43,069 nt of DNA from Candidatus Iainarchaeum sp. (GTDB lineage: Archaea; Iainarchaeota; Iainarchaeia; Iainarchaeales; GCA-2688035). Shown here one piece after another: positions 6,059 to 39,390 of this stretch; position 1 is the first letter of the stretch; the number at the start of each line of letters is the position of its first letter. The DNA is taken from contig JAGVNX010000040.1 in the NCBI GenBank assembly GCA_020053055.1, positions 1 to 43,069 of the forward strand, in the 5' to 3' direction. The notes beneath the pieces were generated by a model. The model saw nothing but the letters and a program-made list of their open reading frames with translations. It did no database searches and was not told the origin of the DNA. A program made the position numbers and the translations under genes.

Positions 6059-6524
6059 TCCAAAATGCCCGCATCATGGGCATTTGAAAGTAAGAGGCAA
6101 TGTATTAACAGGCACTGTCAAAAGCGCAAAAGCGCCGAAAACTGTCAGTGTTGAAAGGATTCTTGTAAAATATGTTCCAAAATATGAAAGGTATAAAAAG
6201 ACAAAATCAAGGGTTTATGCGCATAATCCTGATTGCATTGCCGCAAAAGAAGGCGATTTTGTCACAATAGGGGAAACAAGAAAATTGAGCAAGACAAAAA
6301 GTTTTGTTGTTTTGAAAATTGAAAAAAAAGCTGACGCTGAAACACATGTTGCAACAGCAATTCCTGAAGCAAAAAACATTAAAAAAGAAAAAGTTGAAGA
6401 AAAAACAGGGAAGAAAAAGCACAAGGAAAATGCGGAGAAAACTGAAGAAGCCCGCGAAGAAAAAGGGCTGCATGAAAAAAAGGATTCTAAAAATGAAAAA
6501 AATGCAAAAAAGGAGAAAAAATAA
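6045..6524 (+). CDS. rps17: 30S ribosomal protein uS17 with a KE-rich tail
   Basis: ATG 6045 follows GGAGG. The sequence GTVKSAKAPKTVSVERILVKYVPKYERYKKTKSRVYAHNP..GDFVTIGETRKLSKTK is S17-like. Confidence 0.93.
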   Translation: MQCNDPKCPHHGHLKVRGNVLTGTVKSAKAPKTVSVERILVKYVPKYERYKKTKSRVYAHNPDCIAAKEGDFVTIGETRKLSKTKSFVVLKIEKKADAETHVATAIPEAKNIKKEKVEEKTGKKKHKENAEKTEEAREEKGLHEKKDSKNEKNAKKEKK

Positions 6525-34678: not shown

Positions 34679-35293
34679 ATGGCTAAAATTGAAAAACTCT
34701 GCAAAAATGAAAAAAACGCCTTGAAAAAAGCAGCCAAAACCCTTGAAACAGGCGGGGTAATTATTTTTCCAACAGAAACAAGCTACGGAATAGGCGCAGA
34801 TGCATTAAGCGAAAAAGCAATTAAAAAAGTGCACAAAGCAAAAAAACAGCCTGACAACAAGCCAATAAGCGTAATAGTTGCCAACTTGAAACAGGCAGAA
34901 AGCATTGCCGAGCTAAACCAAGAAGCAAAAATTCTTGCAAAAAAATTCTTTCCAGGCCCGCTTACAATAATTGCGCCTGAAAAAAATGTTCCAAAAAACC
35001 TTGCAAAAAACGGAATCGCATTCAGGGTCCCGGACAATAAATTCGCAAGAAAATTATGCAAAGCATTCGGAAGGCCGATTACAGCAACAAGCGCAAACCT
35101 GCACGGAGAACCCGCAATTTTTGATTCAAAAGAACTGATTGAAAAATTTTACGGCAGAGTAGATTTGATAATTGACGCAGGAAAACTTCCAAAAAGAGAA
35201 GCAAGCACGATTTATTCCGCAATCGAACACAAAATTTTAAGAGAAGGAAAAATAACGAAAAAAGAAATTGAAAAAGCATTGAAAAAGAAGTGA
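34679..35293 (+). CDS. tsaC: L-threonylcarbamoyladenylate synthase (Sua5/YrdC/TsaC, YrdC-domain only)
   Basis: GGVIIFPTETSYGIGADA, KPISVIV, FPGPLTII, FRVPD and ITATSANLHGEP motifs. Confidence 0.9.
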   Translation: MAKIEKLCKNEKNALKKAAKTLETGGVIIFPTETSYGIGADALSEKAIKKVHKAKKQPDNKPISVIVANLKQAESIAELNQEAKILAKKFFPGPLTIIAPEKNVPKNLAKNGIAFRVPDNKFARKLCKAFGRPITATSANLHGEPAIFDSKELIEKFYGRVDLIIDAGKLPKREASTIYSAIEHKILREGKITKKEIEKALKKK

Positions 35294-35297
35294 AAAA

Positions 35298-35771
35298 ATG
35301 GCAAAGCAAATTGGAATCAAAATCACATACAATAAAGAGGCTGGAACGCCTCTTTTCGCAGACTTTCGGATCGAAAAAGGAATTCCATCCAAAGAATTCT
35401 TAACAAACCAAACAATTCGAAAAACGATTCAGGAATCACCTTATATTGTTGGTTGCCATTTGGGAACGATGACTCTCAAAAAAAACCCTAAAGGCAACAA
35501 AGCTTGTTGGGTTTGCTATAACCCATTTCCACGCACCGACCTATGGCTTGGAAAAAAAGGCATTGCACAGTTATTGGAATACCGCGTGCTTCAAAAATTC
35601 AGAGAACAACATCCAACTGTCTCACAGGTTAAACACATAGACCCCTCACAGCTTCGAATAGGCCAGTTACAAAGACGCGGTTTAAATCCTAACCATTACT
35701 CTTTCAAGGATGCTATCAAAAAACTTCGAAAAAAAATTGCCAAAGATGCCCGAAAAACACGAAGGCCATAA
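35298..35771 (+). CDS. Hypothetical protein (weak GNAT-like motif only)
   Basis: 157-aa ORF between sua5 and kae1. LWLGKKGIAQLLEYRVL...LQRRGLNP loosely resembles GNAT motif A/B. By eye, the codon style lacks the poly-A runs of neighbouring genes. Confidence 0.45.
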   Translation: MAKQIGIKITYNKEAGTPLFADFRIEKGIPSKEFLTNQTIRKTIQESPYIVGCHLGTMTLKKNPKGNKACWVCYNPFPRTDLWLGKKGIAQLLEYRVLQKFREQHPTVSQVKHIDPSQLRIGQLQRRGLNPNHYSFKDAIKKLRKKIAKDARKTRRP

Positions 35772-35946
35772 AAATTATTGAATCAAATGATTTGAATAAA
35801 ACAAAAAAATTATTGAATTTGTTACGCAAAAAATAATGAAGGAATTGCAATGATTTGTTTAAGCTGTGAAGCAACGGAGAAATAAAATTTGATTAGGGGA
35901 AATTTGGATTCGAAAAGATTAAGCCTTTGAAAAGCAGATTTTTGTA

Positions 35947-37200
35947 ATGCAAGAGGATTTTTCTTTTTTGGATTATTTTTACGAAATGCATTTCGATGAA
36001 AAAGAAAAGAAAAAATTTTCGGATTTTTTCAGAGCAATTGAATTAAGAAAACAAAAAAACTTTGCAAGCGCAATTGCAGACGTTACTAATTTGCCAAAAC
36101 ACACAATTGAAAAATGGCTTTTTGGCAAAAACATTCCTTTTGTCATTAGGCTTTTTCAACATTATAAAAAAATAGGCAAACCCAAAAAGGGTTGCCAATG
36201 GCTTTCCATAAACTCTACAAGAGGCGGGTTATTTACTGGGCCTTGGGTTCAAGTTCCACTAAAAATAAACGCTTTTGAAGAAGTGGAATATGCACTGAAT
36301 CAATTGAAAGAAATAGAAAACTTTCAAGTATTAAAGAAAAAATTTGGCATTAAAACAGCTGAACAAAAAGAACTTCTTTTTGCATATCTTTTAGGAATGC
36401 TTATTGGCGATTCTAGTAAGCCAGCAATCAAAAGAAAAAACAGGACAACGAGGTGCATAACAATCCGTTTGACAACTGCACACGAAAGCAATGAACTTCT
36501 TGGCGAGTTTACAAGTTTGTGTGCCAATGTCTTGGGTTTGAGAATGAAAAAATGCAAAAATTGCCCTGCAGGAAAATGTAATACAAACCCATTCTATACT
36601 TGGATTTCACAATCTTCCCCCTTAATTCAATGGGTATTCAAAGCCTGTTTAGGGCTTGAGGATAATGGAAGAACAACTTATGACAAAATTAAAGCAGACT
36701 GGTTATTGACTGTGCCTAGAGAGTTTAGAATATGCTTTCTGCAAGGCCTTGCAGATTCTGATGGATTTGTGGATTTAAGTGCACAACACGCCGCAGTAAT
36801 AACACACCCAAATACAAATTTAATAGAAAAAATATTTGATTCTTTAGGAGTAAGAACAAGAAGGTGGTTGATAACCCAAACTGGCTTGTGGTGTCTTGTA
36901 GTAAGCATAAAAGATGCTTTTGAATTGCCATTATTTAGCCCAGAGGTCAAAAGTTATCGCTATCAGAAAGTAATTAAATTGTTTAATGCCAAAAGGATAA
37001 TAGGCCACTTTCCTGCTTGGCTGGGAAAAAAAGTTGATGACAACATAAAAGCAGGGATAACTGGAACAAAATTAATGGAAAAAATTCTTGATGAAGACGG
37101 AGTAGCAATTAGAACAAAATCAATAAACAGAAGGAAGAAAAAAATGGAAAGCAAAAAAGAAGGCATTGTATGCCTTGGCATTGAAAGTACCGCACTCTAA
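35947..37200 (+). CDS. LAGLIDADG-family (double-motif) homing-endonuclease-like protein
   Basis: Two motifs, LLGMLIGDSS and FLQGLADSDGFV, about 110 aa apart. The N-terminal ~130 aa look HTH-like. The last 19 codons are kae1 exon 1, and the stop is the first TAA of the kae1 mini-intron. Confidence 0.8.
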   Translation: MQEDFSFLDYFYEMHFDEKEKKKFSDFFRAIELRKQKNFASAIADVTNLPKHTIEKWLFGKNIPFVIRLFQHYKKIGKPKKGCQWLSINSTRGGLFTGPWVQVPLKINAFEEVEYALNQLKEIENFQVLKKKFGIKTAEQKELLFAYLLGMLIGDSSKPAIKRKNRTTRCITIRLTTAHESNELLGEFTSLCANVLGLRMKKCKNCPAGKCNTNPFYTWISQSSPLIQWVFKACLGLEDNGRTTYDKIKADWLLTVPREFRICFLQGLADSDGFVDLSAQHAAVITHPNTNLIEKIFDSLGVRTRRWLITQTGLWCLVVSIKDAFELPLFSPEVKSYRYQKVIKLFNAKRIIGHFPAWLGKKVDDNIKAGITGTKLMEKILDEDGVAIRTKSINRRKKKMESKKEGIVCLGIESTAL

Positions 37201-38169
37201 ATTTAAGGCGGAGATACTTTTGGTGTCGGTATAGTCAGCGACAGCCAGAACCAGTGCAACATTCTTGCAAATGAAAAAAAAAGCTATGTAAGCGAAACAG
37301 GGGGAATTCATCCTAGAGAAGCAGCTGATTTGCATTATTCAAATGCACGGCTTGTTATTGAAGAAGCACTGCAAAAAGCCAATTTGAAAATCAAAGACAT
37401 TGATTTAATCAGTTTTTCAATTGGCCCGGGCCTGGGGCCTTGCTTGCAGGTCGGGGCAGTGGCTGCAAGAGCCCTGGCGCTTGGAAACAAAAAACCTTTG
37501 ATTGGAGTGAACCATTGCGTTGCGCATGTTGAAATTGCAAAAAAAATTACTAATGCAAAAGAAGCAATTTTTGTTTATGCTTCCGGGGCAAACACGCAGA
37601 TAATCGGCTATGAAAGCGGAAAATACAGGGTTTATGGAGAAACCCTTGACATTGGAATCGGAAACCTCCTGGATTCTTTTGGAAGAAGCCTTGGAATTGG
37701 TTTTCCCGCAGGGCCAAAAATTGACGAAATGTACTTTCAGGCAAAAAATTACATTGAACTGCCCTACAGTGTTAAAGGAATGGACCTTGTTTTTGCAGGC
37801 CTGGAAACAGCTGCAGAAAGAAAAATCGGCAAAGCTGACAAAACAGACTTGGCTTACAGTTTAATGCACACTGCCTTTGCGGAATTAACAGAAGTTTCGG
37901 AAAGGGCTCTTGCGCATACTGAAAGAAAAGAGCTTGTTCTGACAGGAGGGGTTGCTGCAAGCAAAGCCCTGCGCAAAATGATGGATGAAATGTGCAATGC
38001 ACGCGGAGCAAAATTATTGGTGCCGCCTTTCGGAGTCTGCACAGATAACGGCGCAATGATTTCATGGCTTGGAATAGTGGAACACAAAGCAGGAATAAAA
38101 CAAGAAATTTTGGAAACAAGAATCCTGCCAAGGCAAAGAACAGACAATGTTGAAATCACTTGGGTATAA
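37144..38169 (+). CDS. kae1: tRNA N6-adenosine threonylcarbamoyltransferase Kae1 (KEOPS catalytic subunit), interrupted by an 18-nt segment; exons 37144-37195 and 37214-38169
   Basis: GIESTA..TFGVGIV, GGIHPREAA, GPGLGPCLQVGA, GVNHCVAHVE, SGANTQ, GETLDIGIGN, GGVAAS and DNGAMI all lie in one frame. In-frame TAA codons occur at 37198 and 37204. The spliced length is 1008 nt (335 aa). Confidence 0.88.
37196..37213 (+). other. Candidate 18-nt bulge-helix-bulge mini-intron in kae1
   Basis: Canonical hBHBh' motif: AAAGUA 37184-89 / UACUUU 37215-20; CCGC 37190-93 / GCGG 37208-11; bulges ACU 37194-96 and AGA 37212-14; inner hairpin 37197-37207. Excision restores ...STA-H-TFGVGIV. Confidence 0.7.
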
Positions 38170-38232
38170 TTTTAATCATTAGCGGAAGTCTACCTCCAAA
38201 AAATTTTTATAAGGCGAATAAGCAATCACTGT

Positions 38233-39366
38233 ATGATGCGTTCATACAGGTTCAGACTTTACCCAAGTAAGGTTCAGGATAAGGCTATGTGCAGCCATCT
38301 TGGCATAAGCAAGAATCTCTGGAATGAGATGCTTGAACATACGCAGAGGATGTATACTGATTATGGAAAGTTCCCAACAAAAAAAGCTCTGAGACAGTTT
38401 GTGAAGGATACTGGTTTGTATTCGCAAGTCGGTCAGGAGCTTGTTGACAGACTGCTTGATGCACTTAAACACAAAATGCAGATGAAGAAAAAAGGTTTGA
38501 AAGGAGGCTTTCCCAGGTTCAAGAGTTTTGACAGGATGAAATCGTTGAACTATCCGCAGAGCGGCTTCAGACTAGGCAAGAAACTAAAGGTTACGTTGTT
38601 CGGTGATATAGCAATCAGGCAGCACAGGGAAATAAAAGGCAAAATAAAGACAATGAGCCTGAAACACGAGCCAAGCGGAAAATGGTTTGCTATTTTTACC
38701 ACAAAGCAGGAAATGCAACATAATGTAAACAACGGGGATAAAGTAGGTCTTGACCTTGGGTTGTTGTCCTTTGCAACTCTTTCTGATGGAACAGTTATAG
38801 ACAACCCGCGGCACTTGAAGAAGTATGAAAACAAGCTTGCAACCCTGCAAAGGACTCTGTCAAAGTCCAGGAAAGGCTCAATAAACAGGAGAAAGACAAA
38901 GCATAGACTTGCTGTCCTGCATGAAAAGATTGCAAACGCAAGAAAAGATTTCCTGCACAAGCTATCAAACAGGTTAACATCAACGTATTCCCTTATTGCA
39001 ATGGAAGAGCTTGCATCAAAAGAAATGGCAGAAAGACAGTTTGGCAAAAGCATCCATGACGCAGGATGGTCAATGTTTACAAGCATGCTACGCTACAAGG
39101 CTGAAAGCGCCGGTTGCAAAGTCATGCTTGTAAACCCAAAGAACACAACAAAACAATGCAGCAAATGCGGAACATTATCAGATAAAACCCTGAGAGACAG
39201 AATGCATAATTGCCCTTCATGCAATCTCTCAATGGACCGCGACCTAAATGCTGCAAAAGTTATACTTGAAAAAGCTAGGGCAGGAACTGCCCAAAGTAAC
39301 GCCTGTGAAGACAAAGCAACAGCTTTGTCCATGAACCAGGACGCCTGCCGCTTCAGCGGCAGGTAG
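38233..39366 (+). CDS. tnpB: TnpB (OrfB_IS605) RNA-guided nuclease family protein
   Basis: 377 aa. The N-terminus YRFRLYPS is typical. RuvC-I is VGLDLGL, RuvC-II is IAMEEL, the zinc ribbon is CSKCG...CPSCN, and RuvC-III is MDRDLNAAKV. All catalytic residues are present. Confidence 0.9.
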   Translation: MMRSYRFRLYPSKVQDKAMCSHLGISKNLWNEMLEHTQRMYTDYGKFPTKKALRQFVKDTGLYSQVGQELVDRLLDALKHKMQMKKKGLKGGFPRFKSFDRMKSLNYPQSGFRLGKKLKVTLFGDIAIRQHREIKGKIKTMSLKHEPSGKWFAIFTTKQEMQHNVNNGDKVGLDLGLLSFATLSDGTVIDNPRHLKKYENKLATLQRTLSKSRKGSINRRKTKHRLAVLHEKIANARKDFLHKLSNRLTSTYSLIAMEELASKEMAERQFGKSIHDAGWSMFTSMLRYKAESAGCKVMLVNPKNTTKQCSKCGTLSDKTLRDRMHNCPSCNLSMDRDLNAAKVILEKARAGTAQSNACEDKATALSMNQDACRFSGR

Positions 39367-39390
39367 TTCACGCAGTACAATAATCAAAAA
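39300..39390 (+). ncRNA. Putative 3' part of the TnpB omega-RNA (reRNA) scaffold
   Basis: Two perfect 8-bp hairpins in the last 60 nt of the ORF: gacaaagc 39310-17 / gctttgtc 39322-29 and cctgccgc 39344-51 / gcggcagg 39356-63, the second with a TTCA loop. This location is typical for omega-RNA. Confidence 0.45.

What the first reader, a model, noticed from the sequence alone, without database searches (positions are those of the whole stretch)
35947..37213. LAGLIDADG endonuclease ORF reads in frame into kae1 exon 1 and stops on the intronic stop codon
A 417-codon ORF has two LAGLIDADG motifs (LLGMLIGDSS and FLQGLADSDGFV) with acidic residues retained. It lies between the two t6A genes sua5 (34679-35293) and kae1.

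The ORF is in the same frame as kae1 and there is no stop between them. Its last 19 codons are kae1 exon 1 (from M at 37144). Its terminator is the first TAA of the 18-nt mini-intron.

The intron length is a multiple of 3. On spliced RNA, an ORF starting at 35947 would therefore run uninterrupted to 38169, giving a 734-aa LAGLIDADG-Kae1 fusion. On unspliced RNA it ends at 37200. Splicing state would then decide between a free endonuclease-like protein and a fusion or read-through product.

In archaea, homing endonuclease genes normally sit inside BHB introns or inteins. Here one sits 50 nt upstream of a BHB intron. The mini-intron may be what remains of, or may give immunity against, an endonuclease-associated invasion of the kae1 5' end. 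That last point is inference.
Basis: partly seen in the sequence, partly recalled or inferred. Interest (0 to 1): 0.7.

Follow-up and report, generated by a model that had tools for sequence, protein, structure and literature searches.

The report
Homing-endonuclease cassette that rebuilt kae1's start
A selfish LAGLIDADG endonuclease gene has inserted into the essential tRNA-modification gene kae1 of a DPANN archaeon, bringing its own replacement first exon and an 18-base protein-spliced mini-intron, which suggests how short introns spread into archaeal protein-coding genes.

Summary
ORF 35947-37200 (417 aa) has two LAGLIDADG motifs, reads in frame into the kae1 start, and stops on a TAA inside an 18-nt insert.

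The insert is a real bulge-helix-bulge intron (37196-37213). It splits the conserved His codon of Kae1 (ESTA-H-TFG). I found 56 sequence variants of it, 13-30 nt long, with compensatory base changes.

Two syntenic relatives (Kae1 87% identical) have no ORF, no intron and an intact kae1. The window therefore carries a roughly 1.35-kb insertion at about 35866-37213, with a further ~42 nt of exon 2 (to ~37255) replaced along with it. The insertion consists of the endonuclease gene, a replacement exon 1 and the mini-intron. The native exon 1 is left behind as a decaying relic (35850-35885).

Every ORF-bearing locus has the intron. Only about a third of intron-bearing loci have the ORF, and some hold truncated remnants. 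This is a homing-endonuclease life cycle.

The in-frame read-through occurs in 13 of 32 loci, about the chance rate, so the proposed splicing-dependent fusion switch is not supported. The invasion/immunity idea is supported.

No publication describing this was found in the library searched.

The parts
35839..35865 (+). Native kae1 leader and first four codons (AAGGAATTGCA ATG ATT TGT TTA), left in place upstream of the insertion.
   Evidence: 96% identical to the kae1 start region of the syntenic intronless relative L109, positions 2374-2400.
35850..35885 (+). Relic of the native kae1 exon 1 (psi-E1). It reads MICLSCEATEK*, a decayed form of MICLG[LI]ESTAH.
   Evidence: It sits where kae1 starts in L109 and L107. 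Comparable relics lie upstream of the ORF in L008, L010, L051, L087 and L079. Beyond codon 4 it matches L109 at only 11 of 18 nt.
35866..37255 (+). Segment absent from, or non-orthologous to, the syntenic relatives. It is the acquired cassette plus about 42 nt of co-converted exon 2.
   Evidence: blastn homology to L109 and L107 stops at 35865 and resumes at 37255. The first 45 nt of exon 2 match L001 at 35/45 but L109 at 21/44; further on, L109 matches at 51/60.
35947..37200 (+). LAGLIDADG endonuclease ORF, 417 aa. The endonuclease-specific part is 35947-37143. It has an N-terminal HTH region, a double-motif LAGLIDADG core and a C-terminal helical (HTH-like) tail.
   Evidence: AlphaFold2 pLDDT 93.9 and pTM 0.91. 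Best PDB fold match is I-DmoI, E 3.6e-8, TM 0.70.
36388..36417 (+). LAGLIDADG motif 1 (LLGMLIGDSS; D155).
   Evidence: G150, G154 and D155 are invariant in 74 homologues.
36736..36771 (+). LAGLIDADG motif 2 (FLQGLADSDGFV; D272).
   Evidence: G267, S271 and D272 are invariant and G273 nearly so. This is the only stretch that hits Pfam LAGLIDADG_3.
37144..37195 (+). Replacement kae1 exon 1 (E1'), MESKKEGIVCLGIESTA plus the first base of the His codon. It is preceded by an AGGAAG Shine-Dalgarno-like sequence inside the ORF.
   Evidence: E1' peptides resemble those of other cassettes (ME[NS]K..GI[TV]CLGIESTA in L001, P0002-P0004), not the host-type MICLG[IL]ESTA.
37183..37221 (+). Bulge-helix-bulge motif. 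Outer helix GAAAGTA/TACTTTT, central 4-bp helix CCGC/GCGG, and 3-nt bulges ACT and AGA that carry the splice sites.
   Evidence: MFE -17.2 kcal/mol, z -4.25. In 50 variants 98% of cells are paired, against 31-47% when the 3' partners are slid. Pairs 15-46, 21-43 and 22-42 covary.
37196..37213 (+). 18-nt BHB mini-intron (TCTAAATTTAAGGCGGAG). It contains the TAA that ends the endonuclease ORF.
   Evidence: Same site in 82 loci, 56 distinct variants of 13-30 nt, mostly not multiples of 3.
37214..38169 (+). kae1 exon 2 (AT ACT TTT ... TAA). Bases 37214-~37255 came in with the cassette.
   Evidence: Pfam TsaD 2e-68 and NCBIfam arch_KAE1 376 bits. Mosaic identity profile.

Best explanation
The ORF is the endonuclease gene of a mobile homing cassette that invaded kae1 at the codons for the conserved ESTA-H-TFG motif. 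The cassette has three parts: the LAGLIDADG gene, a replacement first exon of kae1 (E1') with its own ribosome-binding site, and an 18-nt bulge-helix-bulge mini-intron.

Shown:
- The cassette is an insertion relative to syntenic relatives.
- The native exon 1 was displaced and is decaying.
- About 42 nt of exon 2 were co-converted.
- The intron has a conserved, covarying BHB structure.
- The protein has an I-DmoI-like fold with both catalytic Asp residues invariant.
- The ORF is sporadic and sometimes truncated, whereas the intron persists.

Inferred:
- The enzyme cuts intronless kae1 at or near the His codon.
- Break repair copies the cassette from a donor. If the relic exon 1 serves as the upstream homology arm, the whole cassette is copied. 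If E1' serves as the arm, only the intron is copied.
- At the DNA level the mini-intron keeps E1' and exon 2 apart, so the target is not recreated next to the endonuclease gene (immunity).
- The host splicing endonuclease and RNA ligase remove the intron from the RNA, so Kae1 is made from E1' plus exon 2.
- The endonuclease is expressed from the captured native kae1 promoter.
- In this window the in-frame read-through into E1', ending on the intron's TAA, is an accident of tight packing.
For: - Synteny: L107 and L109 share S24e-S27ae-Rce1-Sua5-158aa-kae1-LonC with the window but have an intact intronless kae1 and no ORF.
- Breakpoints lie at 35865 and ~37255.
- Exon-1 relics occur in six lineages, and a filled/empty pair exists: L079 versus L054, with 98% and 91% identical flanks.
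- All 17 DPANN genome loci that hold the ORF together with downstream DNA, and 14 full-length ORFs in the metagenome loci, abut an intron-bearing kae1.
- Of 44 intron-bearing loci with at least 1300 nt upstream, 14 hold a full ORF, 2 hold C-terminal remnants, 2 hold a different HTH+LAGLIDADG ORF and 26 hold none.
- L110 has a remnant cut by an IS200/605 element.
- About 115 of the 120 closest Kae1 proteins are intronless.
- BHB covariation.
- Fold and catalytic residues.
Against: - No cleavage, splicing or expression data exist, and the target site is inferred only from the insertion position.
- The intron is far more widespread than the ORF. In Woese-/Pacearchaeota-type lineages it could be old and vertically inherited, so 'immunity' could be a side effect.
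- Distant homologues (25-35% identity) in Thaumarchaeota sit in conserved housekeeping synteny (S28e/L7Ae, GluRS, aIF5B) with no kae1 link. The family is therefore not exclusively a kae1 parasite.
- The window's relic beyond codon 4 is only 61% identical to the native exon 1.
- How the E1' copy first arose is unexplained.
Confidence: 0.7

Rival explanations
1. The in-frame arrangement is a functional switch: unspliced RNA yields a free endonuclease-like protein, and spliced RNA yields a 734-aa LAGLIDADG-Kae1 fusion.
For: In this window the frames do coincide and the intron is 3n. In-frame loci are enriched for 3n introns, 11 of 13 against 1 of 19 out-of-frame loci. That correlation is unexplained.
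Against: The ORF is in frame in only 13 of 32 loci (10 of 26 distinct), about the chance rate. Elsewhere it stops at or before the kae1 start in another frame. No fusion-length proteins appear among 92 homologues. E1' has its own start codon and SD-like sequence. The 3n correlation is not corrected for phylogeny.
Confidence: 0.07
2. The ORF is a domesticated LAGLIDADG+HTH host protein (WhiA-like regulator, or a Kae1/t6A accessory factor) co-expressed with kae1. It is not a mobile nuclease.
For: It forms a tight operon-like pair with kae1 across DPANN at 40-60% identity. It has HTH domains at both ends. WhiA appears among the fold matches. Thaumarchaeal homologues sit in stable synteny.
Against: It is absent from the nearest relatives, which have identical synteny. 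It is absent from 26 of 44 intron-bearing loci, and truncated remnants exist. Both catalytic Asp residues are invariant, unlike WhiA. It arrived with a replacement exon and a co-conversion tract. I-DmoI matches better than WhiA.
Confidence: 0.1
3. The intron is an old, vertically inherited feature of DPANN kae1. An unrelated selfish LAGLIDADG gene merely prefers to land at the kae1 5' end, so the intron neither derives from it nor protects against it.
For: The intron is about three times as common as the ORF and occurs with many unrelated upstream neighbours.
Against: In the window's own clade both features are absent from relatives and appear together. Every full-length ORF found abutting kae1 (32 loci) sits next to an intron-bearing kae1; none abuts an uninterrupted one. 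A second, divergent LAGLIDADG lineage occupies the same position next to the same intron. The relic exon 1 ends at about the intron site.
Confidence: 0.12
4. The ORF encodes a maturase-like cofactor needed to splice the mini-intron.
For: LAGLIDADG maturases exist for group I introns; bI3 maturase is among the fold matches.
Against: 26 of 44 intron-bearing loci lack the ORF. BHB introns are cut by the host splicing endonuclease without cofactors (established knowledge). The motif here is a canonical, stable hairpin.
Confidence: 0.02

Closest known systems
Intron-encoded archaeal LAGLIDADG homing endonucleases in rRNA BHB introns (I-DmoI, I-PorI, I-ApeI)
   Same: A monomeric double-motif LAGLIDADG enzyme (I-DmoI is the best fold match) associated with a BHB intron. 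Both are placed in a highly conserved site of an essential gene, with patchy distribution.
   Different: There the ORF lies inside the intron of an rRNA gene. Here the intron is 18 nt and ORF-less, the ORF lies upstream of a replacement exon, and the host is a protein-coding gene. The protein also carries extra N- and C-terminal HTH-like domains.
Collaborative homing: a free-standing endonuclease gene next to an ORF-less group I intron in phages (F-CphI/psbA in cyanophage S-PM2; T3-like DNA polymerase; mobE/I-TevIII). Reviewed in PMC3984707, PMC6083498 and PMC2790892.
   Same: The endonuclease gene lies outside the intron. The intron interrupts the presumed target and would protect the carrier. 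The intron can outlive or spread without the endonuclease gene.
   Different: Here the intron is spliced by host protein enzymes (BHB) rather than being a self-splicing ribozyme, and the host is archaeal chromosomal DNA rather than phage. The cassette additionally carries a replacement exon and leaves a dead native exon.
Mobile endonuclease ORFs in organelle genes that insert in frame and carry a duplicated gene terminus (from my own knowledge: for example the Allomyces atp6 C-terminal duplication with a GIY-YIG ORF)
   Same: The selfish ORF brings a replacement copy of the gene end it displaces. The displaced end persists as a relic or is fused to the ORF (L079: MKEIICL fused to the ORF).
   Different: Those cases involve 3' ends of mitochondrial genes and no intron. 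Here it is the 5' end plus a BHB intron. A mirror-image 3' case does occur in L110.
cbf5 pre-mRNA BHB intron of Crenarchaeota (PMC2738675)
   Same: A short (16-44 nt) BHB intron in an archaeal protein-coding gene for an RNA-modification enzyme, with lineage-specific gain and loss.
   Different: Different gene and phyla. No endonuclease gene is associated with cbf5, and that paper states the intron is too short to encode one and that the insertion mechanism is unknown.
Fractured genes: a free-standing homing endonuclease gene between the two halves of a split-intein gene (PMC2677866)
   Same: An endonuclease gene sits between two pieces of a conserved host gene whose product is restored post-transcriptionally or post-translationally.
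   Different: Restoration there is by protein trans-splicing of split inteins. Here it is by RNA splicing, and the upstream piece is a dead relic that is not used.

Membership tests
LAGLIDADG homing endonuclease (monomeric, double-motif) | Two LAGLIDADG motifs, each with the conserved acidic residue | tested here: met
   GxxxGD (D155) and LQGLADSDG (D272) are invariant in 74 homologues.
LAGLIDADG homing endonuclease (monomeric, double-motif) | Pseudo-dimeric alpha-beta-beta-alpha-beta-beta-alpha fold | tested here: met
   AF2 pLDDT 93.9. Foldseek top 16 hits are all I-DmoI, E 3.6e-8, TM (target) 0.70.
LAGLIDADG homing endonuclease (monomeric, double-motif) | Curated profile match (Pfam LAGLIDADG_1/2/3) | tested here: inconclusive
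   LAGLIDADG_3 scores 22.9 bits against a cut-off of 22.5, on motif 2 only. No NCBIfam hit.
LAGLIDADG homing endonuclease (monomeric, double-motif) | Site-specific double-strand cleavage of the element-free allele | not testable with these tools
   Needs a biochemical assay on intronless kae1 DNA.
LAGLIDADG homing endonuclease (monomeric, double-motif) | Presence/absence polymorphism at one fixed site, co-conversion of flanks, decaying copies | tested here: met
Archaeal bulge-helix-bulge intron | 4-bp central helix flanked by two 3-nt bulges on opposite strands, plus outer helices | tested here: met
   CCGC/GCGG with bulges ACT and AGA, and outer helix GAAAGTA/TACTTTT. 98% paired across 50 variants with covariation. 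In the shortest (13-nt) introns the inner helix is only 1-2 bp, giving a bulge-helix-loop form.
Archaeal bulge-helix-bulge intron | Removal restores a conserved reading frame or product | tested here: met
   Splicing gives ESTA-H-TFG, as in intronless Kae1. Lengths of 13, 16, 17 and so on would otherwise break the frame in dozens of genomes.
Archaeal bulge-helix-bulge intron | Cleavage by splicing endonuclease EndA and ligation by RtcB; excised circular intron | not testable with these tools
   Needs RNA data or an in vitro assay.
Intron-encoded archaeal homing endonuclease (I-DmoI type element) | The endonuclease ORF lies inside the BHB intron | tested here: not met
   The ORF ends 5' of, or within the first bases of, an 18-nt intron. 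It lies upstream of exon E1'.
Collaborative homing pair (free-standing HEG plus ORF-less intron) | The HEG is adjacent to an ORF-less intron in the same gene region | tested here: met
   Seen in 32 of 32 ORF-bearing loci.
Collaborative homing pair (free-standing HEG plus ORF-less intron) | The enzyme cleaves the intronless allele at the intron insertion site, and the intron blocks cleavage | not testable with these tools
   Inferred only from the insertion position and from the absence of any ORF next to an uninterrupted kae1.
Intein | Hint/splicing domain in frame within the host protein | tested here: not met
   No Hint or intein Pfam hit. Matches to PI-SceI and TliVMA are poor superpositions of the whole chains (rmsd 17-23 Å over ~260-320 columns; one TliVMA entry aligns only 196 columns at rmsd 3.7 Å), consistent with a shared endonuclease domain only. 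The ORF precedes the Kae1 N-terminus rather than interrupting it.
WhiA-like domesticated LAGLIDADG regulator | Loss of catalytic acidic residues; universal, syntenic, single-copy host gene | tested here: not met
   The Asp residues are invariant. The ORF is absent from the closest relatives and sporadic.

The most novel reading that the evidence does not exclude
This may be a previously undescribed class of archaeal mobile element: an 'exon-replacing' homing cassette. It invades the end of an essential protein-coding gene, supplies a substitute terminal exon, and seeds a short BHB intron that outlives the endonuclease gene. That would be a concrete mechanism for intron gain in archaeal mRNAs. 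The same strategy appears at the 3' end of kae1 with a second LAGLIDADG family (L110, L018, L071, L095). In addition, the unexplained link between in-frame ORFs and 3n introns leaves open that read-through or fusion products matter in some lineages.
Probability: 0.45. Interest if true: 0.85.

Novelty: new variant of a known kind. Interest (0 to 1): 0.78.

Why it matters
In the literature I could search, cbf5 is the only archaeal protein-coding gene with experimentally confirmed pre-mRNA splicing, and how such short introns are inserted is described there as unknown (PMC2738675).

Here a universal, essential gene (kae1) carries a BHB intron in at least 82 loci from DPANN-type archaea. The comparative data link the intron's arrival to a homing endonuclease gene that sits outside it. 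If confirmed, this has four consequences:
- It gives a testable route for intron gain in archaeal mRNAs.
- It extends collaborative homing from phage ribozyme introns to protein-spliced introns.
- It shows a way for a selfish gene to enter an essential gene without killing it, by exon replacement.
- It explains systematic mis-annotation of kae1 as truncated or frameshifted in DPANN genomes.

The enzyme family would also be a source of new LAGLIDADG specificities aimed at a sequence conserved across archaea and eukaryotes.

Tried and rejected
- I tested whether the native-gene relic in the window extends past the intron site into exon 2. The local alignment to L109 and L107 is not better than shuffles (68/500 and 12/500), so this is not claimed.
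- I looked for a tRNA or another intron-bearing gene next to the thaumarchaeal homologues. ARAGORN found none in 12 loci. The apparent same-strand downstream ORF (cluster C29) looks like the antisense of a minus-strand gene that I read by eye as S28e (not checked against a profile), so I treated it as spurious.
- I asked whether the whole ~1.35-kb insert could still be spliced from the relic exon. The relic has a stop codon and has lost the CCGC/GAAAGTA pairing strands, so I rejected this for the window (sequence).
- NCBIfam gave no family for the ORF.
- Literature searches for a kae1 intron, LAGLIDADG in DPANN, or BHB introns in DPANN protein genes found nothing relevant.
- I did not run the bacterial promoter/terminator scan, because it does not model archaeal promoters.
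- I considered an intein reading and rejected it (see the membership test).
Full report
**1. The observation**

The window holds an ATG-to-stop ORF at 35947-37200 (+, 417 aa). It contains LLGMLIGDSS (36388-36417) and FLQGLADSDGFV (36736-36771). It runs without a stop into the kae1 start (M at 37144, MESKKEGIVCLGIESTA) and ends on the TAA at 37198-37200. Translating 37144-38169 gives the Kae1 N-terminus, then L*I*GG, then canonical Kae1 to the stop at 38169.

Exon 2 hits Pfam TsaD (2e-68) and NCBIfam arch_KAE1 (376 bits). Sua5 is at 34679-35293, and a 157-aa ORF with no Pfam family (35298-35771) lies between it and the finding. Profile support for the endonuclease is thin: LAGLIDADG_3 scores 22.9 bits against a cut-off of 22.5, on motif 2 only.

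**2. The protein**

A database search found 92 homologues, mostly 400-440 aa and 40-62% identical. They come from Woese-, Pace-, Nano- and Aenigmatarchaeota-type genomes, with more distant ones (25-35%) from Thaumarchaeota. In an alignment of 74, the residues G150, G154, D155, G267, S271 and D272 are invariant (G273 is nearly so). Both LAGLIDADG acidic residues are therefore retained everywhere.

AlphaFold2 on that alignment gave pLDDT 93.9 and pTM 0.91. The best PDB matches are all I-DmoI, the endonuclease encoded in a Desulfurococcus rRNA BHB intron (E 3.6e-8, TM 0.70 on the target). PI-SceI, bI3 maturase and WhiA rank lower. The core is flanked by an N-terminal HTH region (Pfam HTH_3 or HTH_23 in some homologues) and a C-terminal helical tail.

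**3. The 18-nt insert is a genuine BHB intron**

Many homologues end in ...LGIESTA[LHQR], so I fetched loci.
- In all 17 DPANN-type genome loci that have downstream DNA, kae1 follows immediately. It is interrupted at the same place by 13-28 nt.
- Splice sites that restore the universal ESTA-H-TFG fall at GCA-C|...|AT-ACT. In the window the intron is therefore 37196-37213.
- The flanks form a textbook motif: outer helix GAAAGTA/TACTTTT, 4-bp central helix CCGC/GCGG, and 3-nt bulges ACT and AGA.
- A DNA-pattern scan of metagenomes, which did not use the ORF, returned 64 more loci. Kae1 follows the match in 60 of them; in the other four the contig ends too soon.
- Together there are 56 distinct introns of 13-30 nt. 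The commonest lengths are 13 and 16, and only 11 are multiples of 3. Without splicing, kae1 would be broken in dozens of genomes.
- On 50 variants, 98% of cells are paired, against 88.6% in shuffles (0 of 500 reach the observed value) and 31-47% when partners are slid. The unconstrained middle pair of the central helix covaries (UA 29, CG 14, AU 4), as do two intron-internal pairs.
- The window hairpin folds at -17.2 kcal/mol, z -4.25.

**4. The ORF plus intron is an insertion**

The closest Kae1 proteins (87, 87, 82 and 80% identity; Candidatus Iainarchaeum/Diapherotrites) are full length, intronless and start MICLG[IL]ESTAHTFG. About 115 of the best 120 are intronless.

The contigs of two of them (L107, L109) show the same gene order as the window: S24e, S27ae, Rce1-like, Sua5, a 158/222-aa ORF, kae1, Lon_C. 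They have no endonuclease ORF, no intron and no TnpB. The blastn results are as follows:
- Window 33417-35809 matches L109 1-2375 (77%).
- Window 35839-35865 matches the L109 kae1 leader and first codons (96%).
- Homology resumes only at 37255 (84%).
- There is a second gap at 38172-39371, the TnpB element.

At 35850 the window reads ATG ATT TGT TTA AGC TGT GAA GCA ACG GAG AAA TAA (MICLSCEATEK*). This is a decayed copy of the native MICLGLESTAH.

**5. Relics of the old exon 1 in other lineages**

Comparable relics lie upstream of the ORF elsewhere:
- L008: MTIILGIESTCH...
- L087: MALILGVESTA...
- L010: MKNPIILGIKE...
- L051: MICLGIE...
- L079: the relic's first seven codons are fused in frame to the ORF (MKEIICL|QNNQ...).

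L079 and L054 form a filled/empty pair. Their upstream flank is 98% identical and their kae1 is 91% identical.

**6. Co-conversion and travel of E1'**

The first 45 nt of the window's exon 2 match L001, the closest cassette-bearing locus, at 35/45 and share a 9-nt indel with it. They match L109 at only 21/44. From there on, L109 is the closest (51/60 against 37/60).

The replacement exon peptides of different cassettes resemble each other (ME[NS]K..GI[TV]CLGIESTA in the window, L001 and P0002-P0004). They do not resemble the host-type MICLG.... The acquired unit is therefore ORF plus E1' plus intron plus about 42 nt of exon 2. A co-converted exon flank of this kind is typical of homing.

**7. 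Distribution**

All 32 loci with a full-length ORF abutting kae1 have the intron. Of 44 intron-bearing loci with at least 1300 nt of upstream sequence:
- 14 have a full ORF abutting kae1.
- 2 keep only the last 40-50 codons (L104, L106).
- 2 have a different 316-aa HTH+LAGLIDADG_3 ORF at the same position (L068, L075; hhalign E 3e-5 to the family).
- 26 have unrelated neighbours.

In L110, a closer relative of the window (Kae1 67% identical) with the same synteny, only the last ~45 codons of the ORF remain and an IS200/605 transposase gene occupies the rest. The ORF is never seen without the intron, the intron is often seen without the ORF, and truncated ORF remnants occur. This is the pattern expected if the endonuclease cannot persist beside an uninterrupted target and is lost once the intron is fixed.

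**8. The in-frame read-through**

The ORF is in frame with E1' in 13 of 32 loci (10 of 26 distinct), near the 1/3 expected by chance. In the rest it ends at or overlaps the kae1 start in another frame. None of the 92 homologues has fusion length. I therefore read the window's arrangement as tight packing, not a switch.

One oddity remains. In-frame loci nearly always have 15- or 18-nt introns (11 of 13), while out-of-frame loci almost never have a 3n intron (1 of 19). This is not corrected for phylogeny and I have no mechanism for it.

**9. Mechanism**

The steps shown are the insertion, the relic, the co-conversion tract, the BHB structure, the fold with its catalytic residues, and the distribution.

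The remaining steps are inferred:
- The enzyme cuts intronless kae1 near the His codon.
- Repair copies the cassette, using the relic exon 1 as the upstream arm, or copies only the intron, using E1' as the arm.
- The intron prevents re-creation of the target at the DNA level.
- EndA and RtcB restore the mRNA.

Placing the BHB locally, next to a duplicated exon, rather than spanning a 1.3-kb intron, would also avoid conflict between ribosomes and long-range RNA pairing. That last point is speculation.

**10. Caveats**

- Thaumarchaeal homologues lie in conserved housekeeping synteny with no kae1 link. One genome has three copies (L023, L024, L027). Their role is unknown.
- No experimental data exist for cleavage, splicing or expression.

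**11. Comparison and novelty**

The closest known systems are:
- I-DmoI-type intron-encoded endonucleases. Here the defining feature, an ORF inside the intron, is not met.
- Phage collaborative homing (PMC3984707, PMC6083498, PMC2790892).
- Organellar ORFs that carry duplicated gene ends.
- The cbf5 mRNA intron (PMC2738675).
- Fractured genes (PMC2677866).

Literature searches found no description of a kae1 intron or of this cassette. I rate it a new variant of a known kind, with high interest.

Noticed in passing
L110:5093-6241 and L110:4952-4998 / 6191-6237; also L018:5954-6439, L071:6114-7112, L095:21-527: A second, different LAGLIDADG ORF (382 aa; LAGLIDADG_3 31.4 bits plus HTH_24) lies just downstream of kae1 in L110 and ends with a copy of the Kae1 C-terminus (AVDQRQRTDAIEVNWV against AVDQRQRTDQVNVTWV). 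The copies form a 47-nt direct repeat, 77% identical. This is a mirror image of the 5' cassette. Relatives of this ORF abut the kae1 3' end in three other loci, co-directional in L018 and convergent in L071 and L095.
   Followed up: partly
window 38172-39371 (ORF 38233-39366): A TnpB/IS200-IS605 OrfB gene (OrfB_IS605, Cas12f1-like TNB and HTH_OrfB domains) is inserted between kae1 and the Lon_C-domain gene. It is absent from the syntenic relatives L107 and L109. L110 has a Y1 transposase gene next to kae1.
   Followed up: partly
32 ORF-bearing loci (window, L001-L018, L044-L105): In-frame ORF/E1' arrangements correlate with intron lengths that are multiples of 3 (11 of 13, against 1 of 19 out-of-frame). 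The ORF shares the genomic frame of exon 2 in 12 of 19 genome loci. This is not corrected for phylogeny and has no explanation.
   Followed up: partly
L019-L042 (e.g. L020:3941-5212, L026:3890-5167): Thaumarchaeota/Nitrososphaerales homologues of the ORF (25-35% identity, catalytic Asp residues retained) sit in conserved synteny, convergent with an L7Ae gene and an ORF I read by eye as S28e, near GluRS, aIF5B and ndk (gene identities recognised from the translated sequences, not profile-checked). They are not next to kae1 and no tRNA is nearby. Candidatus Gagatemarchaeum has three copies.
   Followed up: partly
L068:947-1897 and L075:1958-2908: A distinct 316-aa HTH_23 plus LAGLIDADG_3 ORF is only remotely related to the main family (hhalign E 3e-5). 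It occupies the same position, abutting an intron-bearing kae1.
   Followed up: partly
window 35298-35771: A 157-aa ORF with no Pfam or NCBIfam family is conserved in position between sua5 and kae1 in L107 (222 aa), L109 (158 aa) and L110 (233 aa).
   Followed up: no
L067:1-2792 (minus strand), also L057, L070, L078, L097: The divergent upstream neighbour of kae1 in several ORF-less loci looked to me like a large helicase-like protein. In L067 it seems to carry an inserted segment that may be an intein with an endonuclease domain; I judged this by eye and did not test it.
   Followed up: no
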